Both the position numbers and the translations under genes were made by a program. The notes under the pieces are model-generated. The model saw nothing but the letters and a program-made list of their open reading frames with translations. It ran no database searches and was not told the DNA's origin. 64,000 bases of DNA from Owenia fusiformis (lineage: Eukaryota): positions 22,258,001 through 22,322,000 of the forward strand of contig CAIIXF020000001.1 in the NCBI GenBank assembly GCA_903813345.2. Direction: 5' to 3'. Positions within the stretch are counted from its first letter, which is position 1; the number at the start of each line of letters is the position of its first letter. Below, in pieces: positions 43,522 through 61,421 of the stretch.

Positions 43522-43799
43522 GTGAGTTTTCATATTCGAATCGTAATATAGACCTCAGAGCAGGGGTAATATCGTCGAATACACCCCTTGGGGCTAGGCA
43601 CACAAGCTTTCGAACCCCTCACTCCCTTCGGTCGTTCTGTGAACGTGGGGAAATCACAAAAACTAAGAATATTGTAACAGTTAGGCCTTTTTGTGGATAT
43701 TTTGGTAGTGTGGACTAATAGGCCTCTGTATACCTTGTGGGTTACGTGACACACGTTAAATGTGTTTGCACCAAAGATTCAACAGAACTTTTAATTATA

Positions 43800-43805
43800 T
43801 TTATT
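43800..43805 (-). terminator. Candidate poly(A) signal AATAAA in LTR (also 57121-57126)
   Basis: Minus-strand AATAAA ~130 bp from the LTR end, followed by GU-rich sequence. Confidence 0.6.
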
Positions 43806-43968
43806 ACACAACAAACGATATATTGTGGCGTCTGTAGGCCCAAAATTGTGTACATCAAATAGCAAAATGTCCTTATAATAAACTGGAATAGAACCAATGT
43901 TCGTTGTTGTTGTTATTATTCACTGTAAGTCCAAACATATAAGCATCAATTGTGGGATTGGATTGAAG

Positions 43969-44175
43969 TCACACAAAGTTCACTGTACTCAGGCTGAAGC
44001 CAAGCGATGACTGCAACACTGGAATCTGTCTAGTTGGTATTGGAGCAGACTTATCATTAGATTCTTCGTCTGTAGTGGTAATGCAAACACGAGTGCAAAT
44101 TACAAACATCAAACAAAGGAGTACAAACGATATGCTGCCCACAATCAAAGCGATGAAAAGAACATCCAGTTCCAT
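43969..44175 (-). CDS. LTR-encoded 68-aa single-pass membrane micropeptide (3' LTR copy)
   Basis: ATG-initiated and on the element's sense strand. Hydrophobic run VLFIALIVGSISFVLLCLMFVIC, juxtamembrane CTRVC and a polar tail; lies just upstream of the poly(A) signal. Confidence 0.55.
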   Translation of the reverse strand: MELDVLFIALIVGSISFVLLCLMFVICTRVCITTTDEESNDKSAPIPTRQIPVLQSSLGFSLSTVNFV

Positions 44176-44199
44176 ACAAGGACCAGTATCTTGTCTCGT

Positions 44200-46222
44200 G
44201 CAGGTAGCCTCCTCGTGCTAAGTCTAGTGAATCGTCTTCTCCCTCAAGTAGCCTCCTCCGGCTAAGTCTAGTGGATCCTCTTCTCCCTCAGGTAGCCTGC
44301 TCCGGCTAAGTCCAAAAGATCCTCTTCTCCCTCAGGTAGCCTCCTCCGGCTAAGTCCAATGGATCACCTTCCTCAGGAAGTCCGTTCGACAAAGTCGCTA
44401 AAATAAAGACCCAGCCTCAGTGAGTCCGTTCGACAAAGTCAACTGGAACGTCTTCTCCCTCAGGTAGCCTCTTCAGCTAAGTCCAATGGATCCTCTTCTC
44501 CCTCAGGTAGCCTCTTCAGCTAAGTCCAGTGGATCCTCTTCTCCCTCAGGTAGCCTCTTCAGCTAAGTCCAGTGGATCCTCTTCTCCCTCAGGTAGCCTC
44601 CTCTGGGTAAGTCCAATGGATCACCTTCCTCAGGAAGTCCGTTCGACAAAGTCGCTAAAATAAAGACCCAGCCTCAGTGAGTCCGTTCGACAAAGTCAAC
44701 TGGAACGTCTTCTCCCTCAGGTAGCCTCTTCAGCTAAGTCCAATGGATCCTCTTCTCCCTCAGGTAGCCTCTGGCTAAGTCCAATGGATCCTCTTCTCCC
44801 TCAGGTAGCCTCTGGCTAAGTCCAATGGATCCTCTTCTCCCTCAGGTAGCCTCTTCAGCTAAGTCCAGTGGATCCTCTTCTCCCTCAGGTAGCCTCCTCT
44901 GGGTAAGTCCAATGGATCACCTTCCTCAGGAAGTCCGTTCGACAAAGTCGCTAAAATAAAGACCCAGCCTCAGTGAGTCCGTTCGACAAAGTCAACTGGA
45001 ACGTCTTCTCCCTCAGGTAGCCTCTTCAGCTAAGTCCAATGGATCCTCTTCTCCCTCAGGTAGCCTCTTCAGCTAAGTCCAGTGGATCCTCTTCTCCCTC
45101 AGGTAGCCTCTTCAGCTAAGTCCAGTGGATCCTCTTCTCCCTCAGGTAGCCTCCTCTGGGTAAGTCAAATGGATCACCTTCCTCAGGAAGTCCGTTCGAC
45201 AAAGTCGCTAAAATAAAGACCCAGCCTCAGTGAGTCCGTTCGACAAAGTCAACTGGAACGTCTTCTCCCTCAGGTAGCCTCTTCAGCTAAGTCCAATGGA
45301 TCCTCTTCTCCCTCAGGTAGCCTCTGGCTAAGTCCAATGGATCCTCTTCTCCCTCAGGTAGCCTCTGGCTAAGTCCAATGGATCCTCTTCAGCTAAGTCC
45401 AGTGGATCCTCTTCTCCCTCAGGTAGCCTCCTCTGGGTAAGTCCAATGGATCACCTTCCTCAGGAAGTCCGTTCGACAAAGTCGCTAAAATAAAGACCCA
45501 GCCTCAGTGAGTCCGTTCGACAAAGTCAACTGGAACGTCTTCTCCCTCAGGTAGCCTCTTCAGCTAAGTCCAATGGATCCTCTTCTCCCTCAGGTAGCCT
45601 CTTCAGCTAAGTCCAGTGGATCCTCTTCTCCCTCAGGTAGCCTCTTCAGCTAAGTCCAGTGGATCCTCTTCTCCCTCAGGTAGCCTCCTCTGGGTAAGTC
45701 AAATGGATCACCTTCCTCAGGAAGTCCGTTCGACAAAGTCGCTAAAATAAAGACCCAGCCTCAGTGAGTCCGTTCGACAAAGTCAACTGGAACGTCTTCT
45801 CCCTCAGGTAGCCTCTTCAGCTAAGTCCAGTGGATCCTCTTCTCCCTCAGGTAGCCTCCTCTGGGTAAGTCCAATGGATCACCTTCCTCAGGAAGTCCGT
45901 TCGACAGTCGCTAAAATAAAGACCCAGCCTCAGTGAGTCCGTTCGACAAAGTCAACTGGAACGTCTCCCTCAGGTAGCCTCTTCCGGTGAAGTCCAATGG
46001 ATCCTCTTCTCCCTCAGGTAGCCTCCTCCGGCTAAGTCCAATGGATCCTCTTCTCCCTCAGGTAGCCTCTTCAGCTAAGTCCAGTGGATCCTCTTCTCCC
46101 TCAGATAGGCTCCTCCAGCTAAGTCCAATGGATCACCTTCCTCAGGAAGTCCGTTCGACAGTCGCTGAAATAAAGACCCAGCCTCAGTGAGTCCGTTCGA
46201 CAAAGTCAACTGGAACGTCTTC
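44200..46222. repeat. Hierarchical tandem array 1 in 3' LTR (43-bp units punctuated by 8 copies of a ~90-bp block)
   Basis: 43-bp period at 44488/44531/44574; block starts at 44361, 44618, 44914, 45171, 45448, 45705, 45876, 46130. Confidence 0.95.
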
Positions 46223-46249
46223 AGTGAGGAAGTTTCACAATAAATTATC

Positions 46250-47120
46250 TAAGTCAAACTTCAAATAGAACAAAGTCGAAGAATATTTCAAAGTGTGAGT
46301 AAGAAATATTCTAAGTCCAAGTTAGTATAAACGACTAAAATGTATAAGTCCAACTCCAGGTAGATGTACCACAGAACAAAGTCAAAGAATATTTCGAAGT
46401 GCCAGTAAGAAATGTTCTAAGTCCAAGTTAGCATCCACAGCAAAATATACAAGTCCAACTTCAGGTAGATGTATCACAGAACAAAGTCAAAGAATATTAA
46501 AAATGATTAAAATATTCTAAGTCCAAGTTAGCATCCACAGCAAAATATACAAGTCCAACTTCAGGTAGATGTATCACAGAACAAAGTCAAAGAATATTAA
46601 AAATGATTAAAATATTCTAAGTCCAAGTTATCATCTACAGCAAAATATACAAGTCCAACTCCAGGTAGATGTATCACAGAACAAAGTCAAAGAATATTGA
46701 AAATGATTAAAATATTCTAAGTCCAAGTTAGCATCCACAGCAAAATATACAAGTCCAACTTCAGGTAGATGTATCACAGAACAAAGTCAAAGAATATTGA
46801 AAATGATTAAAATATTCTAAGTCCAAGTTAGCATCCACAGCAAAATGTACAAGTCCAACTTCAGGTAGATGTATCACAGAACAAAGTCAAAGAATATTGA
46901 AAATGATTAAAATATTCTAAGTCCAAGTTATCATCTACAGAAAAATGTACAAGTCCAACTAAATTGACTTTGCCAAAGTTTAACCTCAAGTAGATTCGTC
47001 TACAGCCAGGTACATGTGAACAGAACAAAGTCAAAGAATATTAAAAATTGATTAAAATATTCTAAGTCCAAGTTATCATGTACAGAAAATGTCAAAGTCC
47101 AACAAAGTCAAAGTTGTCAA
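46250..47120. repeat. Tandem array 2 in 3' LTR (100-bp unit, ~8 copies)
   Basis: TTCTAAGTCCAAG at 46415, 46515, 46615, 46715, 46815 and 46915, plus degenerate flanking copies. Confidence 0.95.
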
Positions 47121-47912
47121 AATTTACAAAATATCACGAGCGGAGCTCTGTACCAGTCAAAAGCTAAATCAAGTCTCTCTCGAGTGTCAACTTTCTCAGC
47201 TTATATACTCTAGGAGGTTGCCCGGATGACGTACTCGCGCAATACAAAATATTGGCGCAAACTGATTAACCAAATGTTTAAATTACGATTACGGGCCTAC
47301 AGACGTGAAAATAACTCACAAATATGGTTGGTAATTGCGAGTTAATTATACAGATAAGAAATATAATGATAAAGTGTGGAAATACATTCACAATAGGTGG
47401 CTAGAGCAAGTTATTTAATGGAACAGGAAATAAAATGACCGCCGAAATGGCAGACGAGATTGAATTGACATTTCAAATTCACGACCAAATATCTTGAAAA
47501 CTAAACATTATTGCTACCCCTAATTTACAGAAATGATCGCTAATATTGTTATCTATCTAAATAAATCTAAATTAATAATTCAAATGGACTAACTAACCTG
47601 TATTTTTGCGATAAGTACGGAGCTTGAATATTCGAAGTTGTGGCTTAGTGAAGTAACTCTAAATGAGCACTACTAATGAAACGAAAAATACTACATTGAA
47701 ATAATGAGACAGAAAACGAAACTACCTCACTAAAAATAATGAACGCTAGCCGCCTAATTAAATATTGCAATGGGCCACAAATAAATATAATTATCACCAA
47801 AGGACCAGGTAAAATAAGGGAACAAGTGAAGTTGTTGTATTTAATGGCCATAATCTTGAGACTATCCAAATGGAAAACTATAATAATTTTTCAAAAAAAA
47901 TATTTTGTTACA

Positions 47913-47927
47913 CTCCTCCCTTCTTTT
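47913..47927 (-). other. Polypurine tract
   Basis: Minus-strand AAAAGAAGGGAGGAG directly abuts the 3' LTR. Confidence 0.9.
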
Positions 47928-48783
47928 GTTTTTGGTGTTTTCAACACCAAGCATAATTTCTCTTGAACTAACAATATATTTTTTTAAGAAAAATAAACTG
48001 TATTAAACTATAAAAACTTTCTTATCAAAAATAGTTACATTATAAAAATAACTACATTACATCTTACGAAAATATGTTATTTTGATGGCACTACTACTAA
48101 AGATAATTTTACTTTCTCTCATTGGTTATAACCAGGAGTTTTCTATCTCTAGTTTCAAGTGATTACATGCCTATAAACTACATCTCTAGTTACTTGACTT
48201 ATAATAAACTACCAAAACACAAAGTGTGTCCGGTCATAAACATTTACTATCTCTTGTTTCAAGTAACAGCATGACTTATACACTCAAAACATAAAAAGTT
48301 ATGACATGCAACAAAAATGTACCATCTCAAGTTTCAAATGATTACATGATTCATAAACTAGTCTCTAGCGACATGATTTGTAATAAACTACCAATATACA
48401 AAGTGTGTCATGCAATATACAAAAAATAAATGTCTTCACTCATGCACAACCACATTACAATTTCTAAGTCATCATGTGAACTATCTTATTTTAATGCCAG
48501 AACTACTAAACTGTCTTCATACTCTGTCGTTACCATATGTGAGATAAGTATTACAAAAATAAATTCACCCATCACTAATCACCAGGTACTTAAATTACTC
48601 GCCATAAAATCAAGATATAAGCTCATTGTCATACAAAATAATTGTAAACAGCTCATGTACGAAGCAAAATAATTATCTCTCCATTAAAAACTGATCATCT
48701 TTTCTAAGTCCTAATAACAGTCTCTTATAATATCTGGTTATATTTTCTAAGTCCTCATAATAGTCTCTATCACACTAGAATCT

Positions 48784-50169
48784 TTATATTTTGAGATCGC
48801 TATATCGACTTACCAATGTCTCATCTTCTATCACTGAACCGTCCCTGGCAAAATACCTAAAACGGATCTCCATTTTGATAGGGTTACGGATTGTCCCCCT
48901 TTGGTAGTCCTCATATTCATCGGTTTCCTCATCCTGTAAACGTTGTAACTCCACCCTGGGTTGTTGGTTCAACTTTACATCTTCCTCATCCGAGCTATCT
49001 ACCACATATTTCTTGCTCTTTGGCGCTTTTCGAACTCTTTTGTTATGTGGCTTTGATGACGCCCCCTCAACTACTACTGTCCGACTATCCATTTTTTCAA
49101 CCTCTTCTATTTCACTCTCCACTTTATTGTCCTGACCAGACTTGTCCTTGACTACTCTTTTACCCTGTTTAGAGGTTGTCTTTGCCTTCTCTTCGTAGGT
49201 TTTCTTGATGTCATGATCGGTTGGTTTTACTGTCCCATCGCTGACTCTCTTACTGTCTTTATCTGTGGGTTTCTTTGTGTCATTAGTAGTTTTCTTAATG
49301 TTTTTATCAGTGGTGTTCTTGTCTTTTTCAGTGGTTTTCTTAGGATCAGTGGTTTGCTTTATGTCTTTATCAGTTTTCTTAGTGTCTTTTTCAGTGGTTT
49401 TCTTAGGATCTTTGTCGGTGATTTGCTTTATGTCTTTATCAGTTTTCTTAGTGTCCTTATCGGTTGGTCTCTTCATGTCATCGCTCTTTTCGTTATTGTT
49501 ACTGTCTATCGCTATTTTCTCTGGTGATTTCTCTTTCACGCTTGGTTCTTTCTTACTATCCAATATCTTACCCCACACTGATAAAACTCCCTCTACCCTC
49601 TTGGTTTTGTCAGCAGGTTCTTCCCCGGTTGAAAGGCATGGTACGGGTTTATCAACGGTAGGTGGTACTGACACTGTCATGGGAGAGTTCTTTTCAGGGG
49701 GCGCTCCCAAGCTTGCTGAAGGTGGATAGGTTGTGGTGCAAGGCGTCTGTAAACCTTGCAGTAGTCCTGAAATCTGTCGCATAATTTGTATCCCCTCTGG
49801 ACTTTGCAGACTTGCGACTTGTTCTTCCTGACTAAATGCCTTACTAGAGGACAGGGAGGACCTCTCCCACCTGGCGAATTTATCTACTCTGTTATAGTCC
49901 CTGCTGGAAGCTCCGTCCCTATCATGGTCCCTCTTTTGATCCTGATCTCTATTACGATAGTCTCTTTCTGTTTCTCTATGATCTGTCCCTCTGTCGTTCT
50001 CTCTCCGGTTGGAAGCTCTGCCCCTATCATGGTCCCTACTTTGACCCTGGTCTCTATTGCGATAGTCTCTGTCTGTCTCTCTACTACGGGAGCGATCCCT
50101 TCGGTCTTGGGACCCATATCTGTCATCCCGGCCTCCATAGTCCCTACGCCCGTGTCCTCTGTGAGACAT
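48784..50169 (-). CDS. Putative spliced accessory ORF3 (461 aa, disordered, not Env), in frame with integrase
   Basis: Acceptor CTCTTTTTGTATTTCCAG| (AG 50184-83) lies 13 nt before ATG 50169, right after the integrase-terminal-like RVRKPPKRFADY motif. Confidence 0.55.
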   Translation of the reverse strand: MSHRGHGRRDYGGRDDRYGSQDRRDRSRSRETDRDYRNRDQGQSRDHDRGRASNRRENDRGTDHRETERDYRNRDQDQKRDHDRDGASSRDYNRVDKFARWERSSLSSSKAFSQEEQVASLQSPEGIQIMRQISGLLQGLQTPCTTTYPPSASLGAPPEKNSPMTVSVPPTVDKPVPCLSTGEEPADKTKRVEGVLSVWGKILDSKKEPSVKEKSPEKIAIDSNNNEKSDDMKRPTDKDTKKTDKDIKQITDKDPKKTTEKDTKKTDKDIKQTTDPKKTTEKDKNTTDKNIKKTTNDTKKPTDKDSKRVSDGTVKPTDHDIKKTYEEKAKTTSKQGKRVVKDKSGQDNKVESEIEEVEKMDSRTVVVEGASSKPHNKRVRKAPKSKKYVVDSSDEEDVKLNQQPRVELQRLQDEETDEYEDYQRGTIRNPIKMEIRFRYFARDGSVIEDETLVSRYSDLKI

Positions 50170-53100
50170 TCTTTCTTGGTACCTGGAAATACAAAAAGAG
50201 GTCTCTAAGTCATAGTCCGCAAAGCGTTTTGGGGGTTTACGAACTCGCTTACCAACACAGTTCTTAACTTTATCAGACACATTATTATCTGACTTTGGCT
50301 TATCACACGCAGTAGGCTCCCAAAAATCTGTGTCCATCTGGCCATCAGGATCTTCCTTCTTCGACACTTCCTTGGCTTCAAAGTCCGAAGGTTCAGTATT
50401 CTTCTTGGATGCCCTTTTGTCAGTCGCCTCGTTCTTCAGTTCTTCAGATTTGTAGTCCTCATTCTTCAACTCCGGCTCGGTCTCCTCATTCTTCAGTTCT
50501 TCAGACTTGTAGTCCAATGGATCGGTGTGTATCTCCACCATCTTAGGTTCGGTATCCTCATTCTTCAGTTCTTCAGATTTGTAGTCCTCATTCTTCAACT
50601 CCGGCTCGGTCTCCTCATTCTGCACTTCTTCAGATTTGCAGTCCTCATTCTTCAACTCCGGCTGGTTAGGTTTGAAATCAAATGGGTCTGCTGCTAGCTC
50701 GGACATCTTTGGAATGGTCCCTTCTTGTGGTATAGTCCAACCGTCTGGAAGGCAACTCTCGTAAGGCTTCATCTGATCGAAATGTACCACCCTAGGCTTG
50801 ATCTTTCCCCACTCACGGATACGATACGTCACATCTGACATCTTTTGGAGGACCTGAAATGGACCAATCCATTTACATTGTAATTTAGGAGACACCCCTT
50901 TCTTCTTAGTGTTGTTTTTTAACCACACAGCTTCCCCTATAGTGTATCCCTTCCCTGAAACCCGCCGATCATAAGCATCTCGTTGCCGTTGATTGGCTTT
51001 CTTCAACACTTGGCTGGCGCGCTCATGTGCATCTCTTAAGCCTTGTCTAAGTTCAATCACGTAATCCGTCTTAGTTTCTTCTGATACAGGGTTTTCCACT
51101 ATCCAGGATACTGGCACAGCCAACTCCCTTCCGAACATCATCATTGCTGGTGTCTCCCCTGTCGCCTCGTGAGTGGATGTGCGATAGGCCAGCAATGCAT
51201 AAGGAATCTTTACATCCCAGTCGTATTGATGAACATCAGGCTGTAACAGTTTAGCAATAGTATCCAATAGAGTCCGATTGTACCTCTCCACCATCCCGTT
51301 GCTCTGCGGATGGAAGGGTGTAGTACGGGTCTTGTGAATCCCCATCAATTCACAGATTTCTTGAAATACATGAGACTCAAAATTTCTGCCTTGATCTGAG
51401 TGCAGTTCTGCTGGGGCTCCAAATCTGCAAACAACCTCGTTTACCAACTTATCAGCTACAGTTGTGGCTTCTTGATTAGGGAGAGGGTAGGCTTCAACCC
51501 ACTTCGAGAAGTAGTTGGCACACACCATTATCACCTTATTCCCTCTTGGTGTCTCGGGGAATGGTCCCAAAATATCCACAGCATAACGCTCCATAGGAGA
51601 ACTAACTCCTTGGACCTGCATGGGAGCTCTTCTAGCCTTCAAGGGTTTTCTTCTGGTTCCACAGGTGTGGCAAGAGCGCACAACTCCTCTAACATCGACT
51701 CTCTGCTCAAACCAATAGAATCTCTGTCGGCTCTTCAGGAAGGTGCGACGGACACCAAAATGTCCGGCAACCTTGTTAGAGTGGCTCATCTCTAGAACAA
51801 TCGCCTTCATTGGAGATGGAACTAGTATCTGTAGATGACCATGCTCCCCACTGGCATCCTCCCATCTGTTGCAAAGTACATTGTTGTTGATCTCAAGTTG
51901 ATTCCAAAGGTGCCAATAATGCTTTGTAGCGGGCGAATTGTAACTGATCTTATCCCAAGTTGGTCTGATTGAAGAAGTTCGCAGAGCCTCTAATATAGGC
52001 TGTATCTCAGGATCTTGTCCTTGTGCCTCCGCAATTTTCTCCAAAGTCCAAGTTGGTTCAACAGAGACCACAGAGATTGCTACCTGAAGCACATCTTCCT
52101 GTTCCACCTCATCACAATGTGAACACTGGTGACAGGGCCGTCTGGACATAACATCAGCGTTCGCATGTTTTGGTCCTGGGCGATATTCCAGTTGGTAGTT
52201 ATACTCCTGTAGTACCTCCAGCCATCGAGCTAGTTGTCCCTCTGGATTCCTGAAGTTAGTTAACCACCTCAATGATCCATGGTCTGAACGAATGGTAAAT
52301 CTGACCCCATACAAGTATTGGCGAAAATACTTGACAAAAAATACCACAGCTAAAAGTTCCTTGCGAGTCACGCAGTAATTCAACTCTGGTCCATTCAACC
52401 GATGACTTGCATAGTATATCACCCGCTCTTCATTGTCTTGAATCTGGGATAACACAGCACCCAAAGCTTCATGACTGGCATCCGTGTCTAAAATATAGGG
52501 ACAATCATCTCTGGGAAAAGATAAGATAGGTGCTGTAGTTAACATCTCCTTCAAAGCAACAAAGGCCTCCTCTGCTTCAGGATTCCACATAAATCTCTGA
52601 TTCTTTCGTGTCAACTTGTGTAAAGGACCGGCTATTTCGGCAAAGTTTTTGATATGCCTTCTGTAGTAAGAAGCCCCTCCTACAAATTGTCGGACATGTT
52701 TTACTGTCCTTGGAGTAGGGTACTGCACCATAGCTGCTATCTTCTCCGGGTCTGGTGCAATGCCATCACCAGAAACAACATGGCCGAGGAAGTTCACTTT
52801 AGTCTGGAACAGGGTACACTTGCTAGGTTTCATCTTCAATCCAGCTCGGCGAAGACAACCAAATACCCTTTCTAAGCGACCAATCGCTTGTTCAAACGTG
52901 GGGGCGAATGAAATCACATCGTCCAAATAAACCAGAGAACCATCATCTTTCAAACCACTAAGAACTTCTTCCATCAGGCGACAAAATGTCGAAGGTGCAT
53001 TCGATAAGCCAAATGGCATCACAGTCCATTGGTAAAGTCCACCTCTTACTGTGAACGCTGACTTCTCTTGAGCGTCTTTATCCAATAAGACCTGCCAATA

Positions 53101-53352
53101 CCCACTTGCAAGATCCAGTGTGCTGAAATACTTCGATCCATTCAGCATATCCAAGGTTTCATCGATTCTAGGAATTGGGAAAGCGTCTTTCTTCGTAACA
53201 CTATTAAGTTTTCGGTAATCGACGCAGAATCTCCATGAGCCGTCTTTCTTTCTTACAAGTACTATGGGTGACGCCCACGGACTCTGGGAGGGCTCGATTA
53301 TACCTCGCTTCATCATGTCTTCAATAAGATCAGTCACAGTATCCTGACGACT
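48784..53352 (-). CDS. pol: Pol: RT, RNase H, integrase (GPY/F) and long low-complexity extension; in frame with gag-PR across one TGA
   Basis: SPWASP, RFCVDYRKLN, MPFGL, YLDD, DTDAS, HANAD, H-H-C-C zinc finger, VDILGP/HSDQG/NGMVER, WIGPF. Confidence 0.95.
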   Translation of the reverse strand, partial: SRQDTVTDLIEDMMKRGIIEPSQSPWASPIVLVRKKDGSWRFCVDYRKLNSVTKKDAFPIPRIDETLDMLNGSKYFSTLDLASGYWQVLLDKDAQEKSAFTVRGGLYQWTVMPFGLSNAPSTFCRLMEEVLSGLKDDGSLVYLDDVISFAPTFEQAIGRLERVFGCLRRAGLKMKPSKCTLFQTKVNFLGHVVSGDGIAPDPEKIAAMVQYPTPRTVKHVRQFVGGASYYRRHIKNFAEIAGPLHKLTRKNQRFMWNPEAEEAFVALKEMLTTAPILSFPRDDCPYILDTDASHEALGAVLSQIQDNEERVIYYASHRLNGPELNYCVTRKELLAVVFFVKYFRQYLYGVRFTIRSDHGSLRWLTNFRNPEGQLARWLEVLQEYNYQLEYRPGPKHANADVMSRRPCHQCSHCDEVEQEDVLQVAISVVSVEPTWTLEKIAEAQGQDPEIQPILEALRTSSIRPTWDKISYNSPATKHYWHLWNQLEINNNVLCNRWEDASGEHGHLQILVPSPMKAIVLEMSHSNKVAGHFGVRRTFLKSRQRFYWFEQRVDVRGVVRSCHTCGTRRKPLKARRAPMQVQGVSSPMERYAVDILGPFPETPRGNKVIMVCANYFSKWVEAYPLPNQEATTVADKLVNEVVCRFGAPAELHSDQGRNFESHVFQEICELMGIHKTRTTPFHPQSNGMVERYNRTLLDTIAKLLQPDVHQYDWDVKIPYALLAYRTSTHEATGETPAMMMFGRELAVPVSWIVENPVSEETKTDYVIELRQGLRDAHERASQVLKKANQRQRDAYDRRVSGKGYTIGEAVWLKNNTKKKGVSPKLQCKWIGPFQVLQKMSDVTYRIREWGKIKPRVVHFDQMKPYESCLPDGWTIPQEGTIPKMSELAADPFDFKPNQPELKNEDCKSEEVQNEETEPELKNEDYKSEELKNEDTEPKMVEIHTDPLDYKSEELKNEETEPELKNEDYKSEELKNEATDKRASKKNTEPSDFEAKEVSKKEDPDGQMDTDFWEPTACDKPKSDNNVSDKVKNCVGKRVRKPPKRFADYDLETSFCISRYQERMSHRGHGRRDYGGRDDRYGSQDRRDRSRSRETDRDYRNRDQGQSRDHDRGRASNRRENDRGTDHRETERDYRNRDQDQKRDHDRDGASSRDYNRVDKFARWERSSLSSSKAFSQEEQVASLQSPEGIQIMRQISGLLQGLQTPCTTTYPPSASLGAPPEKNSPMTVSVPPTVDKPVPCLSTGEEPADKTKRVEGVLSVWGKILDSKKEPSVKEKSPEKIAIDSNNNEKSDDMKRPTDKDTKKTDKDIKQITDKDPKKTTEKDTKKTDKDIKQTTDPKKTTEKDKNTTDKNIKKTTNDTKKPTDKDSKRVSDGTVKPTDHDIKKTYEEKAKTTSKQGKRVVKDKSGQDNKVESEIEEVEKMDSRTVVVEGASSKPHNKRVRKAPKSKKYVVDSSDEEDVKLNQQPRVELQRLQDEETDEYEDYQRGTIRNPIKMEIRFRYFARDGSVIEDETLVSRYSDLKI

Positions 53353-56300
53353 TCAGGGTAACATGCGATATCTTTGCTTTATTGGTGGAGTATTCCCGGT
53401 GTCTATGCTGTGCTCTACTAGAGTTGTCTTACCCAAGTCACCATCTCTTTGGGCAAAAATATCTTGATTCCTCACAAGTAGTGATTGAAGTTGATCACTC
53501 TGATTCTGTGTAAGTCCACATGAACTTCTTTCAAATAAGGCCTGCATAAAATCTGGCAATGGTATAAGTCCTTCTTCAGCTCCCTCTGAAGTTGAAAGTG
53601 GGCAAACGACCTCTTGTTTAACTTTTTCCAAATTCACATGGTAGGTCTCATCATCCACCAAAGTGAAGACTCCCAAAGTTTCTCCTTGGAGGACGGATAC
53701 TTCGAAGTCGTTATTGTTCCGCACTTCTATATAGCTGACCTGATTAGCATCAGCTAATATGGTTACCACTTCAAGTTCATCCATCTGGGTATCAGATAAG
53801 TGGGGTTCAATAATGCCCACCCCCACTAGTGGTTCCCTCAACCGAACCTCGATACATCTACCAGAGTAAGGAGGTATGACCACTTCATCCTCAGAGCAGT
53901 TGTAACAAAATGTAGATTGTTGTTGAGCACACATCTGTCTCAAATCGGGAAATACATCATCTTCCAAGTCCAAACTCTCTTGAGACCCATGTGGCGTTTC
54001 TGGAATAACGATAGGTTCCGCTGGGGGACTGTCAGGAAACTGTACCTCTGGTTCAGGCGACGGAGTTTCAGGTACAAATAGTTCCCAGGCATCCTCAAAA
54101 ACTTGAGAATCTTCTGATTCCTCTGTGTCTTCCTCGACTACAGACAGGGGACTATCAGGAATTTCTATCTTGACTCTAGGTGAAGGTGTCTCAGGTCTAG
54201 GTTCTACCATTCTCTTCACTTGTGTTGAACTTGGTCCAGCTTCAGCTGATTCTTTTAAACTCTTTGTAGTCCTGGGCTTGGATCCAACAACCTCCAATGC
54301 TGAGCCGCTACTACTACTTTCATTTCTTGATAACTTAGTACTGCAGCTACAGAAGTGATCAGATTCGTCTGACTCAGGTCCCTCAGGATCATCAAGTTGA
54401 TCTTCTGCTGCACCAGAGTTATCTTGTGCCCCAAAACTAAGTCGACAGCGATGGTAATCTACTATAGCTCCAGATGCGGACAAATAGTCGCTTCCCAAAA
54501 TTCCATCAAAGTCTATGTTGGCTACAGCAATCTCCATCTCTTCGGTATGTCCATCTATATTAACAGTACCAAGGATAACTCCCATCATGGCCAGTGGTTC
54601 CCCATCTGCTTGGACCATAACATGGTTTGGAGGTAACAACTTTGGGCGATATCGAGGGTTCATCCTACGATAAACTTCACCACTCACAATGGTACGCACT
54701 GCTCCAGAATCTAACAAAAAGATCACATCAGTGCCACAGACATCGCCATGAGCTATAACCTTCCGAACATCCTTAGGGGATTTGTTCTTGGTAACATCTC
54801 TCCCTGAATGAGACAGGAATTTCACCGGGGCAGTCTGATTCGATCCAGCTTGGGCCTCTCTGGCTCTCTCTTCATTTCGTTTCCTCGAATAACAGTCGGC
54901 CATCACGTGTCCTGATTTGTGACAGTAGAAACACTCAACTTTTCTATTTCGGTTTCCTCTCGATTCGAACCCAGGCTTCTTTTGTTGTTCCAATAACTCC
55001 ACCATTTTCTCTAAGTTCTTGCTGCATTCCACTTGTACGCTTTTCTGGATATTCTCTATCAGTTGGGTAATCTGCTTGAACTCACTCTCTTTTTCTTCCA
55101 ACGCACTTATTCTACCGTATTTTGGCTTTTGTCCTTTTCTAATCCGTTCAGACTCTAAGTAGGACTCTTCCTTCAGAGCGATTTCTATTGCCTTATCCAG
55201 AGTGGTACATTCTTTTGCGTGGATTGCTCTGCGTATGTCCTCTTCTACTATAGCTTGTTCAAAGCTGCGTCTGGCAAGGCGGTCTTGAGATGATCTGCTC
55301 ATTTCAGGGTAGGCCAATGCCGTAAGCCGTCGGATGTCTTGACCCAAGGTTTGAAGTGATTCTTTGGGCTTCCTCATTCGACCAACAAGTTCCGCCTCGT
55401 AGATTTCTGCTTTGCCACCAGGCCCGAACCTCTTCTCCAAGGCCAGGATCAACTGCTCATAGGTGTATCCCTCTTCCAACTCTAACACAATCTGCTGTGC
55501 TGGACCTCGCAGACTTGTGGCCAGGTACTGGTTCTTCTCCTCCGAAGTCCATCTATTGGCTTTACAGCAAATCTCGAAGTAAGCGCGATACTCTTGCCAT
55601 GGAGTTGTACCATTAAAAGTGTCAGGCTTAATTCGGCTCTTGGATTTGGGCCTGTCATCTTGGGACAACTTATCACAGAAGTTGTTGAACATCTTGAGGA
55701 AATCTGTAGAAACACCAGGTATATTAGTATCATCTTTCGAAATCTTCGGTTCAGGGGAATCAAAACCCGAGAATTTATTATCTTCTTCAAATCTAGTTCT
55801 TATATCAGAATATGGTGCCGTATGATCACTGCTTCTAGGTGGATGTCCATCCCTTTCTCTTTGGCTCTTAAACTCGTTAGCGTCCCAGCCTCCAGGAAGA
55901 TACACTTCATCAGGTTTATTAAACAGTATAGTGGGATCTCTGTGGTCTGTTTGGTGTTTAGTTGGCACATAGACTCTGTCTTGTCTTTGTAAAGACCATG
56001 GTCGCTTCCTTTGAGGAGGAAAGGACTCTGGAATATCCTCATCTTCTAAATCTTGTTTTTGACTCATTGGCATCGTAGGTGATTTGAACGGTTGCCTCTG
56101 AGATTTTCCTGCAGAATCTGGCCTAGGGTTCTCATCAAACTCTGAAGGACAACCAACATCTTCGTAGTTTCGTGACCTCGAAACGACTTCTTGCTGAACT
56201 GGAGGAATGGTCAAAGTAGAGTGCAACTTGTCAATAGACTCACCAATAGTCTTCTGGAAAGATTCCATGTAATGTTGCATCTCTTGTAAGCGGCGATCTT

Positions 56301-56931
56301 GTATTCCCGCAATCTCTTGTAGTCGCCTCTCATGCTTTTGCTCACTGCCTTGTTGAATATTCTTGGTCTCCGCAAGGTGTTCCACTATTTGGGACATGCT
56401 ACTGGTCTGTATCTGCTGAGTTGTTGTTATGGCATTCAACTGTTTCTGTTGTGTATCCGCAATGTCACCTAACACAGACATCTTCCCTTTGAGCTGTCCC
56501 TCAATCATAGTTAGTTCTTGTCTAATCTCTTCGGCTGCTTGAACTTTGTCTGAGGGCCGATTAATGATAGTTGATGTCAATGGGAAACGTGGTCTTGGGG
56601 GAGGATTCCTTCTATCTCGAATCATGGGATGTGCCGGAGTTCCCATATTATCTAAGTCTCCTCCTGTCCAGTAGCCTGTACTTTGTATGCCAGGAAAAAT
56701 GCTCATTTCAGAATCCACCTTCGAATCTTTAGCTCTGGCGCCTACACCAAGTTGATCCTCTGGTTGATCAGACAATGGTTCTCCATCTTGTTGCACAGGT
56801 AAAGTTTCATCTTCAGCTCCAGGATTTTCCACTTCAGCTGACTCTGGTTTCAGGAACACTGTCTTCTCCATGTCAGACTCGTCTCCATCTCTTGGATAAG
56901 GAAGACCTGCCTCTAGTTCCATCTTGTCCAT
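53353..56931 (-). CDS. gag: Gag-protease polyprotein (1192 aa)
   Basis: Capsid KPDTFNGTTPWQEY...W...LATSLRGPA, knuckle CFYCHKSGHVMADC, protease FLLDSGA...GILGSDYL, then an acidic linker and a possibly dUTPase-like degenerate segment. Confidence 0.95.
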   Translation of the reverse strand: MDKMELEAGLPYPRDGDESDMEKTVFLKPESAEVENPGAEDETLPVQQDGEPLSDQPEDQLGVGARAKDSKVDSEMSIFPGIQSTGYWTGGDLDNMGTPAHPMIRDRRNPPPRPRFPLTSTIINRPSDKVQAAEEIRQELTMIEGQLKGKMSVLGDIADTQQKQLNAITTTQQIQTSSMSQIVEHLAETKNIQQGSEQKHERRLQEIAGIQDRRLQEMQHYMESFQKTIGESIDKLHSTLTIPPVQQEVVSRSRNYEDVGCPSEFDENPRPDSAGKSQRQPFKSPTMPMSQKQDLEDEDIPESFPPQRKRPWSLQRQDRVYVPTKHQTDHRDPTILFNKPDEVYLPGGWDANEFKSQRERDGHPPRSSDHTAPYSDIRTRFEEDNKFSGFDSPEPKISKDDTNIPGVSTDFLKMFNNFCDKLSQDDRPKSKSRIKPDTFNGTTPWQEYRAYFEICCKANRWTSEEKNQYLATSLRGPAQQIVLELEEGYTYEQLILALEKRFGPGGKAEIYEAELVGRMRKPKESLQTLGQDIRRLTALAYPEMSRSSQDRLARRSFEQAIVEEDIRRAIHAKECTTLDKAIEIALKEESYLESERIRKGQKPKYGRISALEEKESEFKQITQLIENIQKSVQVECSKNLEKMVELLEQQKKPGFESRGNRNRKVECFYCHKSGHVMADCYSRKRNEERAREAQAGSNQTAPVKFLSHSGRDVTKNKSPKDVRKVIAHGDVCGTDVIFLLDSGAVRTIVSGEVYRRMNPRYRPKLLPPNHVMVQADGEPLAMMGVILGTVNIDGHTEEMEIAVANIDFDGILGSDYLSASGAIVDYHRCRLSFGAQDNSGAAEDQLDDPEGPESDESDHFCSCSTKLSRNESSSSGSALEVVGSKPRTTKSLKESAEAGPSSTQVKRMVEPRPETPSPRVKIEIPDSPLSVVEEDTEESEDSQVFEDAWELFVPETPSPEPEVQFPDSPPAEPIVIPETPHGSQESLDLEDDVFPDLRQMCAQQQSTFCYNCSEDEVVIPPYSGRCIEVRLREPLVGVGIIEPHLSDTQMDELEVVTILADANQVSYIEVRNNNDFEVSVLQGETLGVFTLVDDETYHVNLEKVKQEVVCPLSTSEGAEEGLIPLPDFMQALFERSSCGLTQNQSDQLQSLLVRNQDIFAQRDGDLGKTTLVEHSIDTGNTPPIKQRYRMLP

Positions 56932-56973
56932 CTTGTAAGTTCTCTAGTTCTGGCTCGTCTTTGGAAACAATTC

Positions 56974-56992
56974 AATCCCACCGCTGCCACCA
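56974..56992 (-). other. Primer-binding site, tRNA-Leu
   Basis: Plus-strand AATCCCACCGCTGCCACCA matches the 3' end (with CCA) of animal tRNA-Leu AAG/TAG as I recall it; 1 nt from the 5' LTR. Confidence 0.85.
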
Positions 56993-57289
56993 GTGTAACA
57001 GTTAGGCCTTTTTGTGGATATTTTGGTAGTGTGGACTAATAGGCCTCTGTATACCTTGTGGGTTACGTGACACACGTTAAATGTGTTTGCACCAAAGATT
57101 CAACAGAACTTTTAATTATATTTATTACACAACAAACGATATATTGTGGCGTCTGTAGGCCCAAAATTGTGTACATCAAATAGCAAAATGTCCTTATAAT
57201 AAACTGGAATAGAACCAATGTTCGTTGTTGTTGTTATTATTCACTGTAAGTCCAAACATATAAGCATCAATTGTGGGATTGGATTGAAG

Positions 57290-57496
57290 TCACACAAAGT
57301 TCACTGTACTCAGGCTGAAGCCAAGCGATGACTGCAACACTGGAATCTGTCTAGTTGGTATTGGAGCAGACTTATCATTAGATTCTTCGTCTGTAGTGGT
57401 AATGCAAACACGAGTGCAAATTACAAACATCAAACAAAGGAGTACAAACGATATGCTGCCCACAATCAAAGCGATGAAAAGAACATCCAGTTCCAT
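57290..57496 (-). CDS. LTR-encoded 68-aa membrane micropeptide (5' LTR copy)
   Basis: Translation identical to 43969-44175. Confidence 0.55.
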   Translation of the reverse strand: MELDVLFIALIVGSISFVLLCLMFVICTRVCITTTDEESNDKSAPIPTRQIPVLQSSLGFSLSTVNFV

Positions 57497-60400
57497 ACAA
57501 GGACCAGTATCTTGTCTCGTGCAGGTAGCCTCCTCGTGCTAAGTCTAGTGAATCGTCTTCTCCCTCAAGTAGCCTCCTCCGGCTAAGTCTAGTGGATCCT
57601 CTTCTCCCTCAGGTAGCCTGCTCCGGCTAAGTCCAAAAGATCCTCTTCTCCCTCAGGTAGCCTCCTCCGGCTAAGTCCAATGGATCACCTTCCTCAGGAA
57701 GTCCGTTCGACAAAGTCGCTAAAATAAAGACCCAGCCTCAGTGAGTCCGTTCGACAAAGTCAACTGGAACGTCTTCTCCCTCAGGTAGCCTCTTCAGCTA
57801 AGTCCAATGGATCCTCTTCTCCCTCAGGTAGCCTCTTCAGCTAAGTCCAGTGGATCCTCTTCTCCCTCAGGTAGCCTCTTCAGCTAAGTCCAGTGGATCC
57901 TCTTCTCCCTCAGGTAGCCTCCTCTGGGTAAGTCCAATGGATCACCTTCCTCAGGAAGTCCGTTCGACAAAGTCGCTAAAATAAAGACCCAGCCTCAGTG
58001 AGTCCGTTCGACAAAGTCAACTGGAACGTCTTCTCCCTCAGGTAGCCTTTTCAGCTAAGTCCAATGGATCCTCTTCTCCCTCAGGTAGCCTCTGGCTAAG
58101 TCCAATGGATCCTCTTCTCCCTCAGGTAGCCTCTGGCTAAGTCCAATGGATCCTCTTCTCCCTCAGGTAGCCTCTTCAGCTAAGTCCAGTGGATCCTCTT
58201 CTCCCTCAGGTAGCCTCCTCTGGGTAAGTCCAATGGATCACCTTCCTCAGGAAGTCCGTTCGACAAAGTCGCTAAAATAAAGACCCAGCCTCAGTGAGTC
58301 CGTTCGACAAAGTCAACTGGAACGTCTTCTCCCTCAGGTAGCCTCTTCAGCTAAGTCCAATGGATCCTCTTCTCCCTCAGGTAGCCTCTTCAGCTAAGTC
58401 CAGTGGATCCTCTTCTCCCTCAGGTAGCCTCTTCAGCTAAGTCCAGTGGATCCTCTTCTCCCTCAGGTAGCCTCCTCTGGGTAAGTCAAATGGATCACCT
58501 TCCTCAGGAAGTCCGTTCGACAAAGTCGCTAAAATAAAGACCCAGCCTCAGTGAGTCCGTTCGACAAAGTCAACTGGAACGTCTTCTCCCTCAGGTAGCC
58601 TCTTCAGCTAAGTCCAATGGATCCTCTTCTCCCTCAGGTAGCCTCTGGCTAAGTCCAATGGATCCTCTTCTCCCTCAGGTAGCCTCTGGCTAAGTCCAAT
58701 GGATCCTCTTCAGCTAAGTCCAGTGGATCCTCTTCTCCCTCAGGTAGCCTCCTCTGGGTAAGTCCAATGGATCACCTTCCTCAGGAAGTCCGTTCGACAA
58801 AGTCGCTAAAATAAAGACCCAGCCTCAGTGAGTCCGTTCGACAAAGTCAACTGGAACGTCTTCTCCCTCAGGTAGCCTCTTCAGCTAAGTCCAATGGATC
58901 CTCTTCTCCCTCAGGTAGCCTCTTCAGCTAAGTCCAGTGGATCCTCTTCTCCCTCAGGTAGCCTCTTCAGCTAAGTCCAGTGGATCCTCTTCTCCCTCAG
59001 GTAGCCTCCTCTGGGTAAGTCAAATGGATCACCTTCCTCAGGAAGTCCGTTCGACAAAGTCGCTAAAATAAAGACCCAGCCTCAGTGAGTCCGTTCGACA
59101 AAGTCAACTGGAACGTCTTCTCCCTCAGGTAGCCTCTTCAGCTAAGTCCAGTGGATCCTCTTCTCCCTCAGGTAGCCTCCTCTGGGTAAGTCCAATGGAT
59201 CACCTTCCTCAGGAAGTCCGTTCGACAGTCGCTAAAATAAAGACCCAGCCTCAGTGAGTCCGTTCGACAAAGTCAACTGGAACGTCTCCCTCAGGTAGCC
59301 TCTTCCGGTGAAGTCCAATGGATCCTCTTCTCCCTCAGGTAGCCTCCTCCGGCTAAGTCCAATGGATCCTCTTCTCCCTCAGGTAGCCTCTTCAGCTAAG
59401 TCCAGTGGATCCTCTTCTCCCTCAGATAGGCTCCTCCAGCTAAGTCCAATGGATCACCTTCCTCAGGAAGTCCGTTCGACAGTCGCTGAAATAAAGACCC
59501 AGCCTCAGTGAGTCCGTTCGACAAAGTCAACTGGAACGTCTTCAGTGAGGAAGTTTCACAATAAATTATCTAAGTCAAACTTCAAATAGAACAAAGTCGA
59601 AGAATATTTCAAAGTGTGAGTAAGAAATATTCTAAGTCCAAGTTAGTATAAACGACTAAAATGTATAAGTCCAACTCCAGGTAGATGTACCACAGAACAA
59701 AGTCAAAGAATATTTCGAAGTGCCAGTAAGAAATGTTCTAAGTCCAAGTTAGCATCCACAGCAAAATATACAAGTCCAACTTCAGGTAGATGTATCACAG
59801 AACAAAGTCAAAGAATATTAAAAATGATTAAAATATTCTAAGTCCAAGTTAGCATCCACAGCAAAATATACAAGTCCAACTTCAGGTAGATGTATCACAG
59901 AACAAAGTCAAAGAATATTAAAAATGATTAAAATATTCTAAGTCCAAGTTATCATCTACAGCAAAATATACAAGTCCAACTCCAGGTAGATGTATCACAG
60001 AACAAAGTCAAAGAATATTGAAAATGATTAAAATATTCTAAGTCCAAGTTAGCATCCACAGCAAAATATACAAGTCCAACTTCAGGTAGATGTATCACAG
60101 AACAAAGTCAAAGAATATTGAAAATGATTAAAATATTCTAAGTCCAAGTTAGCATCCACAGCAAAATGTACAAGTCCAACTTCAGGTAGATGTATCACAG
60201 AACAAAGTCAAAGAATATTGAAAATGATTAAAATATTCTAAGTCCAAGTTATCATCTACAGAAAAATGTACAAGTCCAACTAAATTGACTTTGCCAAAGT
60301 TTAACCTCAAGTAGATTCGTCTACAGCCAGGTACATGTGAACAGAACAAAGTCAAAGAATATTAAAAATTGATTAAAATATTCTAAGTCCAAGTTATCAT

Positions 60401-60521
60401 GTACAGAAAATGTCAAAGTCCAACAAAGTCAAAGTTGTCAAAATTTACAAAATATCACGAGCGGAGCTCTGTACCAGTCAAAAGCTAAATCAAGTCTCTC
60501 TCGAGTGTCAACTTTCTCAGC

Positions 60522-60576
60522 TTATATACTCTAGGAGGTTGCCCGGATGACGTACTCGCGCAATACAAAATATTGG
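60522..60576 (-). promoter_or_regulatory. Candidate LTR core promoter: TATATAA with upstream CRE-like TGACGTA and CCAAT (also 47201-47255)
   Basis: Minus-strand GTATATAAG ~700 bp into the LTR, just upstream of array 2. Confidence 0.6.
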
Positions 60577-61421
60577 CGCAAACTGATTAACCAAATGTTT
60601 AAATTACGATTACGGGCCTACAGACGTGAAAATAACTCACAAATATGGTTGGTAATTGCGAGTTAATTATACAGATAAGAAATATAATGATAAAGTGTGG
60701 AAATACATTCACAATAGGTGGCTAGAGCAAGTTATTTAATGGAACAGGAAATAAAATGACCGCCGAAATGGCAGACGAGATTGAATTGACATTTCAAATT
60801 CACGACCAAATATCTTGAAAACTAAACATTATTGCTACCCCTAATTTACAGAAATGATCGCTAATATTGTTATCTATCTAAATAAATCTAAATTAATAAT
60901 TCAAATGGACTAACTAACCTGTATTTTTGCGATAAGTACGGAGCTTGAATATTCGAAGTTGTGGCTTAGTGAAGTAACTCTAAATGAGCACTACTAATGA
61001 AACGAAAAATACTACATTGAAATAATGAGACAGAAAACGAAACTACCTCACTAAAAATAATGAACGCTAGCCACCTAATTAAATATTGCAATGGGCCACA
61101 AATAAATATAATTATCACCAAAGGACCAGGTAAAATAAGGGAACAAGTGAAGTTGTTGTATTTAATGGCCATAATCTTGAGACTATCCAAATGGAAAACT
61201 ATAATAATTTTTCAAAAAAAATATTTTGTTACAATATGTATCGGCTTTAAATGTTTTTATTCTCCAACGTCACACAGGACTAAAAACACTCCTGAAACAC
61301 AGGAATACAAGATTTGTTTAACATCGAATGCCTTTTTATAGCAAACATTCAAAAATTGTAATCTTAATTCCCACTCTGATTCTGTAGATTACTGTAGGTC
61401 AAACTCATGTTTATACAATTA

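What the first reader, a model, noticed from the sequence alone, without database searches (positions are those of the whole stretch)
43969..44175. LTR-encoded small transmembrane protein in an env-less Gypsy element
Seen: MELD-VLFIALIVGSISFVLLCLMFVIC-TRVCITTTDEESNDK..., i.e. a tiny N-terminus, one clean TM helix, juxtamembrane cysteines and a short tail. It is intact in both LTRs, and I saw no sense-strand ATG in the 2-kb array before it. Known: viruses use such micropeptides as viroporins or FAST-type cell fusogens. Inference: it could be an Env substitute or host modulator. Caveats: it lacks the myristoylation Gly and polybasic patch of FAST proteins, and LTR identity reflects youth, not selection.
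Basis: partly seen in the sequence, partly recalled or inferred. Interest (0 to 1): 0.75.

Follow-up and report, generated by a model that had tools for sequence, protein, structure and literature searches.

The report
Conserved membrane microprotein in retrotransposon LTRs
A jumping gene without an envelope gene carries, inside its long end-repeats, a tiny membrane-protein gene that selection has preserved across several related families; it is a real accessory gene, but it lacks the hallmarks of the known small fusion proteins, so its job is still open.

Summary
The ORF is real: 68 codons on the minus strand (44175-43969), identical in both 4,240-bp LTRs of a young, env-less Gypsy element. 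Relatives occur in five LTR families of this genome at 48-100% identity. Length is fixed while flanks diverge; dN/dS is 0.29 (p 2e-13 against neutrality). Both termini and three cysteines are the most conserved parts. It is dispensable: a subfamily with most of it deleted has moved, and 0 of 24 sister RT copies (70-82% identical) carry it. It fails the sORF2/FAST tests: ectodomain of about 7 residues, no myristoyl glycine, no polybasic patch, no tyrosine after the helix. No homologue was found elsewhere. RNA-seq shows weak, sense-biased transcription, not clearly above copy number; translation is untested. Best reading: an N-out, probably palmitoylated membrane adaptor whose conserved tail ties particles or a host factor to a membrane, aiding traffic or exit (about 0.35). 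Host modulator, viroporin and fusogen remain open. The scan had no note on this ORF; it had noted the giant LTRs, and a FAST-like ORF in another genome.

The parts
43969..44175 (-). Small ORF, 68 aa: acidic N-terminus of about 7 residues, one transmembrane helix, Cys21/27/31, variable linker, conserved C-terminal 15 residues (copy in the 3' LTR)
57290..57496 (-). Identical copy of the small ORF in the 5' LTR, about 360 nt upstream of the gag ATG
43673..47912 (-). 3' LTR, 4,240 bp, TG...CA ends
56994..61233 (-). 5' LTR, 4,240 bp, 2 differences from the 3' LTR
43669..43672 (.). 4-bp target-site duplication ATAT, repeated at 61234-61237
47200..47210 (-). TATA-like box about 705 nt into the LTR; a similar box lies at 579-705 in families A, B, C and E. 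Promoter role inferred
46267..46960 (-). 100-bp tandem array (6.8 copies) between TATA box and ORF; second copy 59588-60281
44233..46219 (-). 43/257-bp tandem array directly upstream of the ORF, no sense ATG; second copy 57554-59540
43800..43805 (-). AATAAA 133 nt before the LTR end, downstream of the ORF; the first one after the TATA box in family A. Use as poly(A) signal not shown
56974..56992 (-). Primer-binding site, 19 nt complementary to the 3' end of the genome's tRNA-Leu(AAG)
53353..56943 (-). gag-protease frame (1,196 aa; weak PNMA, zinc-knuckle and aspartyl-protease matches). It ends in an in-frame stop at 53353-53355, which breaks this copy's polyprotein just before RT
48784..53352 (-). 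RT-RNase H-integrase frame (1,522 aa) with a charged C-terminal extension of about 460 aa and no transmembrane segment
47913..47927 (-). Polypurine tract before the 3' LTR

Best explanation
The ORF is an accessory gene of one Gypsy clade and encodes a single-pass membrane microprotein. SHOWN: it is protein-coding under purifying selection, lies in the LTR between a TATA box and the LTR end, is transcribed at a low level mainly in sense, and is dispensable for movement. INFERRED: it inserts N-out/C-in, is palmitoylated on Cys27/Cys31, and presents its conserved last 15 residues to the cytosol. It is made from an LTR-started RNA; in families A and E that RNA could end at the AATAAA after the ORF, so that even a solo LTR would be a complete transcription unit. 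MOST LIKELY MECHANISM (inferred): a membrane adaptor. The tail binds Gag particles or a host trafficking factor and holds them at a membrane, helping particles made in that cell to be routed or exported (for example towards germ cells) without the protein being the fusogen. Lineages that do not need this route lose it, as errantiviruses lose env.
For: Coding constraint: between-family NG86 dN/dS 0.10-0.43 in the 27 pairs with a finite dS, 4 more pairs saturated; ML 0.29, p 2e-13; only one codon indel in the ORF, against 8-17 gap openings in each 200-nt flank; only this frame is open in all five families; no special RNA fold (z -0.35). Constraint is highest at the N-terminus (pN 0.056), helix (0.22) and C-tail (0.22) and lowest in the linker (0.38), which suits an anchor plus a binding motif. 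Cys21, 27 and 31 are invariant. Topology: two acidic and no basic residues before the helix in all five families. It is kept by gag-protease-only elements (family E, one B and one C element), which also keep the capsid under selection (E vs F81 capsid pS 0.57, pN 0.047). Repeated loss resembles the env-loss pattern reported for Drosophila Gypsy elements (PMC13486581, passages).
Against: No binding partner, location or translation was shown. The tail matches no family. The data fit a host modulator about equally well. Abundant sister families move without it (0 of 14 RT copies at 70% carry it). Families B and C have no canonical AATAAA in the last 250 nt, and C has ATTAAA/AATAAA words inside its array, so the short-transcript model is not general. 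At least 8 upstream ATGs follow the TATA box in every LTR examined, so how ribosomes reach the ORF is unexplained; no splice joint onto it was seen. The RNA excess over the internal region (12, 5.4 and 6.0-fold) is near the 18:4 copy ratio in two of three runs.
Confidence: 0.35

Rival explanations
1. Host modulator: the microprotein binds a host membrane protein (a restriction factor, pump or signalling complex) through its helix and tail and changes its traffic or activity, as HIV Vpu or the host micropeptide SPAR do (both recalled, not tested). It would benefit any element expressed in that cell.
For: Same anatomy. Sub-threshold Pfam likeness to TMEM52 in 6 of 7 members (best E 5.7e-4, 20.3 bits against a cut-off of 26.4) and to SPAR in 1 of 7; Atlas look-alikes TMEM52 0.94, SMIM36 0.92, Stannin 0.92. 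Invariant residues along the helix (F7, L10, F17, C21) suit a helix-helix contact. Dispensability fits action in trans.
Against: The matches cover only the helix and cysteines, and unrelated helices (a protocadherin-like repeat) score alike. No sign of the fast change expected in a host conflict was seen, though positive selection was not tested site by site.
Confidence: 0.27
2. Viroporin or budding aid like coronavirus E (features recalled): it oligomerises, conducts ions or bends membranes.
For: Short acidic N-terminus, one helix, cysteines after the helix, hydrophobic C-terminal motif; Atlas lists a CoV_E cluster at 0.87.
Against: 0.87 is a lead only by the tool's own scale. The helix has few conserved polar residues to line a pore. 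No Pfam viroporin match in any of 7 members.
Confidence: 0.14
3. A stripped-down FAST/sORF2-type cell-cell fusogen that lets capsids pass directly into neighbouring cells.
For: Right size, env-less host element, sense orientation upstream of gag; Voichek et al. note that their screen would miss palmitoylated, non-myristoylated forms (PMC11952523); p10 FAST proteins use palmitoylated cysteines (PMC12945298, passages).
Against: Ectodomain about 7 residues against about 30; no Gly2; 0-3 basic against 2-3 acidic residues in positions 28-40; no Tyr after the helix. sORF2 is stable in its clade (present in 80% or more of consensus sequences), whereas this ORF is repeatedly lost.
Confidence: 0.12
4. 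A once-useful gene that is now decaying, or a regulatory upstream ORF whose translation, not its product, tunes gag expression.
For: Within family A dN/dS is 0.96-1.87 on 8-10 changes per pair; 6 of 24 family A LTRs carry a 168-nt deletion, 2 lack the start codon, 1 is frameshifted and 1 truncated.
Against: Within-family changes include unselected post-insertion mutations. 50 of 64 LTR copies read are intact, and a recent pair in family E still shows constraint (dN/dS 0.14, p 0.028). A mere uORF would not conserve a helix, three cysteines and a C-terminal motif over near-saturated dS.
Confidence: 0.12

Closest known systems
sORF2 of MDG1-group Gypsy retrotransposons (Voichek et al., PMC11952523; parts 1-4 of 9 of the text and passages read, supplements not read)
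   Same: About 70-aa single-pass accessory protein under purifying selection, in an env-less Gypsy element, sense strand, upstream of gag; occasionally deleted (Blood).
   Different: sORF2 has an ectodomain of about 30 aa with an amphipathic motif, mostly a myristoyl site, a polybasic patch and a Tyr after the helix; this protein has none. It lies inside both LTRs and in solo LTRs, behind 1.5-5.6 kb of leader made mostly of tandem arrays. No sequence similarity was shown.
Reovirus FAST proteins (PMC12945298, passages read)
   Same: Small, one helix, cysteines near the membrane as in p10.
   Different: No ectodomain fusion motif, no polybasic motif, shorter than 80-200 aa, cysteines spaced rather than adjacent.
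TMEM52 / SMIM36 / Stannin / SPAR-like host microproteins (Pfam and Atlas look-alikes)
   Same: Short outer N-terminus, one helix, cysteines just after it.
   Different: All scores are below family cut-offs and cover only the helix; the tail is unrelated. Likeness of build, not shown homology.
Coronavirus E protein (Atlas 0.87; features recalled)
   Same: Size, acidic N-terminus, cysteines after the helix, hydrophobic C-terminal motif.
   Different: No sequence match; oligomer and channel not tested.
Retroviral genes overlapping the LTR, such as MMTV sag and HIV nef (recalled, no call)
   Same: An accessory ORF carried in LTR sequence.
   Different: Those lie in U3, upstream of the promoter; this ORF lies downstream of the TATA box.

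Membership tests
sORF2/FAST-like proteins | Short ORF (63-107 aa) with one transmembrane helix | tested here: met
   67-68 aa; hydropathy 2.9-3.4 in five families; helix in the model
sORF2/FAST-like proteins | Ectodomain of about 30 aa with amphipathic motif | tested here: not met
   Best hydrophobic window starts at residue 8-10; criterion from PMC11952523
sORF2/FAST-like proteins | N-myristoylation motif MGxxxS/T (4 of 6 MDG1 sORF2s) | tested here: not met
   0 of 5 family representatives have Gly2
sORF2/FAST-like proteins | Polybasic patch just after the helix | tested here: not met
   Residues 28-40 hold 1, 3, 1, 0, 3 basic and 3, 3, 3, 3, 2 acidic residues in A, B, C, D, E
sORF2/FAST-like proteins | Conserved Tyr just after the helix | tested here: not met
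   No Tyr in the 7-row alignment
sORF2/FAST-like proteins | Palmitoylated membrane-proximal cysteines (p10 type) | tested here: inconclusive
   Cys21, 27, 31 invariant but not adjacent; modification not measurable here
sORF2/FAST-like proteins | Sense orientation in an env-less element, upstream of gag or downstream of pol | tested here: met
   here the place is inside the LTR
sORF2/FAST-like proteins | Cell-cell fusion or capsid transfer | not testable with these tools
   needs cells
Viroporins / coronavirus E-like | Small hydrophobic protein with cysteines after the helix (recalled) | tested here: met
Viroporins / coronavirus E-like | Homo-oligomer | not tested
Viroporins / coronavirus E-like | Ion or solute conductance | not testable with these tools
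   needs bench work
TMEM52 (PF14979) | Pfam gathering score 26.4 | tested here: not met
   20.3 bits, residues 5-45 only
Ty3/Gypsy LTR retrotransposon (the carrier) | Order protease, RT, RNase H, integrase | tested here: met
Ty3/Gypsy LTR retrotransposon (the carrier) | TG...CA LTRs, tRNA primer site, polypurine tract, target duplication | tested here: met
Ty3/Gypsy LTR retrotransposon (the carrier) | Named clade (MDG1/412 or other) | not tested
   No named reference RTs were on hand; the tree holds only this genome's elements

The most novel reading that the evidence does not exclude
A second, independently evolved envelope-free route for Gypsy particles to leave a cell or reach germ cells: an ectodomain-less, palmitoylated microprotein encoded in the transcribed part of the LTR, so that solo LTRs and pol-less elements supply it in trans to autonomous relatives that have lost it.
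Probability: 0.2. Interest if true: 0.85.

Novelty: new variant of a known kind. Interest (0 to 1): 0.63.

Why it matters
Small transmembrane ORFs were only recently tied to envelope-free spread of retrotransposons, and that screen covered arthropods and myristoylated proteins only (PMC11952523). This is a selected membrane microprotein of a different build, in a different place (inside the LTR), with natural plus and minus lineages in one genome. That makes it directly testable whether presence of the gene tracks with somatic versus germline expression. It also shows that LTRs, usually treated as non-coding, can carry a conserved gene that solo LTRs would keep.

Tried and rejected
Homologues outside this genome: none at E 0.01 or better among 227 candidates of 36-119 aa (longer or shorter forms not searched); 1 hit among 1.84 billion representatives, a repeated protocadherin-like helix, rejected as chance; none in viral contigs with the ORF profile or the RT. 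80 metagenome loci found with the RT alignment (48-60% identical, mostly short contigs without whole LTRs) gave no profile hit below E 0.27; this is weak evidence of absence. Run search: no RNA holder listed on record, no evidence either way. The 168-nt joint inside the ORF in 4 RNA reads was first taken as possible splicing and rejected: it has no GT-AG ends and exists in 6 genomic LTRs. Low U3 read depth was rejected as a control, because the window's U3 matched only 1 of the 14 loci compared. Programmed read-through at 53353-53355 was rejected: the 3 other family A copies with RT at 99% have one open frame. RNA structure as the cause of conservation was rejected (synonymous sites vary). A fold search was not run: the model is one helix plus a disordered tail. 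My first reading of a 5-bp target duplication was wrong; it is 4 bp. Literature searches listed no paper on a transmembrane ORF inside Gypsy LTRs; only open-licence papers were searched, Repbase was not available, and the supplements of PMC11952523 (list of 105 sORF2-like hits) were not read.

Full report
OBSERVATION. The minus strand of 43969-44175 encodes 68 residues and a stop, as quoted. It lies in the 3' LTR (43673-47912) of an element spanning 43673-61233; the 5' LTR (56994-61233) holds an identical copy. The LTRs differ at 2 of 4,240 bases and are flanked by a 4-bp duplication, so the insertion is very young. Inside are a tRNA-Leu(AAG) primer site of 19 nt, gag-protease, RT-RNase H-integrase and a polypurine tract. 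This copy has an in-frame stop at 53353-53355; the 3 other family A copies with RT at 99% are open. No env is present. The host was not identified; G000 has 499.5 Mb in 819 contigs, and an animal host is inferred.

IS IT A GENE? A search of the own genome gave 61 matches, 58 of them at E below 4e-11. They fall into five families: A (18 matches, 88-100%), B (5, 54-56%), C (19, 54-57%), D (1, 57%) and E (15, 48-52%). In all 20 LTR pairs compared it lies near the LTR 3' end, typically 440-690 nt from ATG to end. I read 56 of the 58; 50 have ATG, 67-68 codons and their own stop. Between families the ORF keeps its length to within one codon, while 200-nt flanks align at 43-65% with 8-17 gap openings. 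Between-family dN/dS is 0.10-0.43 in the 27 pairs with finite dS, 4 further pairs are saturated, and all 31 have Fisher p below 0.007. A codon model on 9 sequences gives 0.29, and 1.0 is rejected (LRT 53.8, p 2e-13). Only this frame is open in all five families, and the RNA has no unusual fold. This is selection on a protein. Within family A the three pairs give 0.96-1.87 on 8-10 changes, which does not show selection and is expected where post-insertion mutations dominate.

THE PROTEIN. Invariant in 7 of 7 rows: MELD, F7, L10, F17, C21, C27, V30, C31, P52, L54, S56, F60, N66, F67. Mean pN is 0.056 for residues 1-6, 0.22 for 7-31, 0.38 for the linker and 0.22 for the last 16. The hydrophobic window starts at residue 8-10, after two acidic residues; an N-out, C-in topology is inferred. 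AlphaFold gives a helix over 2-40 (pLDDT 87-97 for residues 1-30) and disorder beyond 42. No family claims it: TMEM52 scores 20.3 bits against a cut-off of 26.4, the Atlas returns look-alikes only, and sequence searches found no homologue.

IT IS DISPENSABLE. Six of 24 family A LTRs carry the same 168-nt deletion, leaving 12 codons. They belong to 4 insertions: two gag-protease-only elements with both LTRs deleted and two apparently solo LTRs. One A element with an open polyprotein frame lacks the start codon in both LTRs, and one E element is frameshifted in both. Two further copies are degenerate. Counting all, 50 of 64 copies read are intact. All 11 RT copies at 85% or more to the window's have the ORF within 10 kb; none of 24 at 70-82% has it within 15 kb (two of these lie on short contigs). 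The F70 LTR aligns with a C LTR at 84-85% on both sides of the ORF, and the F81 LTR with an E LTR at 77-82% and 96%, with the ORF segment missing. RT groups as ((A,(B,C)),(F81,(F82,F80))), and the E capsid groups with F80-82 (96/92). The ORF tree also joins B with C (100). The simplest reading is presence in the common ancestor of both branches and several losses; transfer by LTR recombination is not excluded, and F70's C-like LTR on a distant RT shows that such swaps occur.

EXPRESSION. In A, B, C and E a TATA-like box lies 579-705 nt into the LTR, followed by 1.5-5.6 kb of mostly tandem repeats and then the ORF. In A and E an AATAAA follows 121-133 nt before the LTR end; B and C have only variants there. 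Three RNA-seq runs (87, 77 and 72 reads laid from 11-13 million read) gave depth 7.2, 3.6 and 3.7 in the ORF bin in the direction expected for sense RNA, against 1.6, 0.6 and 0 opposite; the internal region averaged 0.59-0.67 against 0.01-0.13. The 5-12-fold excess must be set against 18 ORF copies to 4 RT copies, and part of the bin draws array reads. No start or end pile-up and no splice joint onto the ORF was seen. So the region is transcribed weakly, mostly in sense; a dedicated mRNA is not shown, nor is translation.

MECHANISM. A protein with almost nothing outside the membrane, conserved cysteines at the inner face, a free linker and a conserved terminal motif is built like an adaptor. 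Its retention by pol-less elements that also keep a selected capsid suggests a benefit in the cell that expresses the element. Its repeated loss resembles env loss in Drosophila Gypsy elements more than the stable sORF2 (PMC13486581, passages). I put most weight on a particle-routing adaptor (0.35), then host modulator (0.27), viroporin (0.14), fusogen (0.12) and relic or regulatory ORF (0.12). All of these functional steps are inference.

COMPARISON. The nearest precedent is sORF2 of MDG1 elements (PMC11952523; parts 1-4 of 9 and passages read; supplements not read). It may work in a related way, but it is not a member: ectodomain, myristoyl site, polybasic patch and post-helix Tyr are all absent. 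Passages of PMC12945298, PMC13524379, PMC8220671 and PMC12440569 described nothing of this kind. Six searches listed no report of a transmembrane ORF inside Gypsy LTRs. Earlier scan notes describe the giant arrays and pol-less elements of this genome and a FAST-like ORF in another genome; none matched this protein.

VERDICT. A real, selected, orphan accessory microprotein in an unusual place, with natural loss lineages as built-in controls. New variant of a known kind; interest 0.63.

Noticed in passing
window 44233-46960 and 57554-60281; L083-L088, L095: Multi-kilobase tandem arrays fill the LTR downstream of the TATA box across the clade, with or without the ORF. Units differ by family, but the word ACTTAG recurs (5-36 times in A, B, C, E; never in U3). 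They imply a leader and strong-stop DNA of about 3.5 kb.
   Followed up: partly
window 43704-43713 and 57025-57034 (minus): A 10-nt word 30-42 nt before the LTR end is nearly complementary to the 5' end of tRNA-Leu(AAG) and is kept in most families examined; possibly a second primer contact.
   Followed up: partly
window 48784-50170 (minus): Integrase continues in frame into about 460 aa: an Arg/Asp/Ser-rich stretch, Lys/Thr/Asp repeats and a C-terminal motif shared with family C. RNA reads and a contig show a variant that lacks 1,717 nt here.
   Followed up: no
L045-L051, L064, L071, L073: Gag-protease-only elements with A-, B-, C- and E-type LTRs all end in a related basic C-terminal tail absent from the autonomous elements, suggesting one pol-less lineage that recombines with several families.
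   Followed up: partly
L037, L038: Two family A elements have both LTRs and the ORF but only a short internal region with about 80 nt of gag and no long frame.
   Followed up: no
L088, L190, L191: Family F70 (RT 70% identical, 14 copies) carries a C-type LTR, which points to LTR exchange between distant families.
   Followed up: partly
window 47213-47912: The window's U3 matched only 1 of 14 loci compared; other family A LTRs share the arrays and 3' end but have a different U3.
   Followed up: no
window 44233-46219 (plus strand): Read antisense, the array repeats a pyrimidine tract ending in CAG and an AATAAA, like splice acceptors and poly(A) signals; may be incidental.
   Followed up: no
window 41915-42559 (plus): Host exon with a SOCS box ends about 1.1 kb from the element's 3' end.
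   Followed up: no
window 9727-12069 (minus): 780-aa frame with RT and zf-RVT domains, probably a LINE fragment.
   Followed up: no
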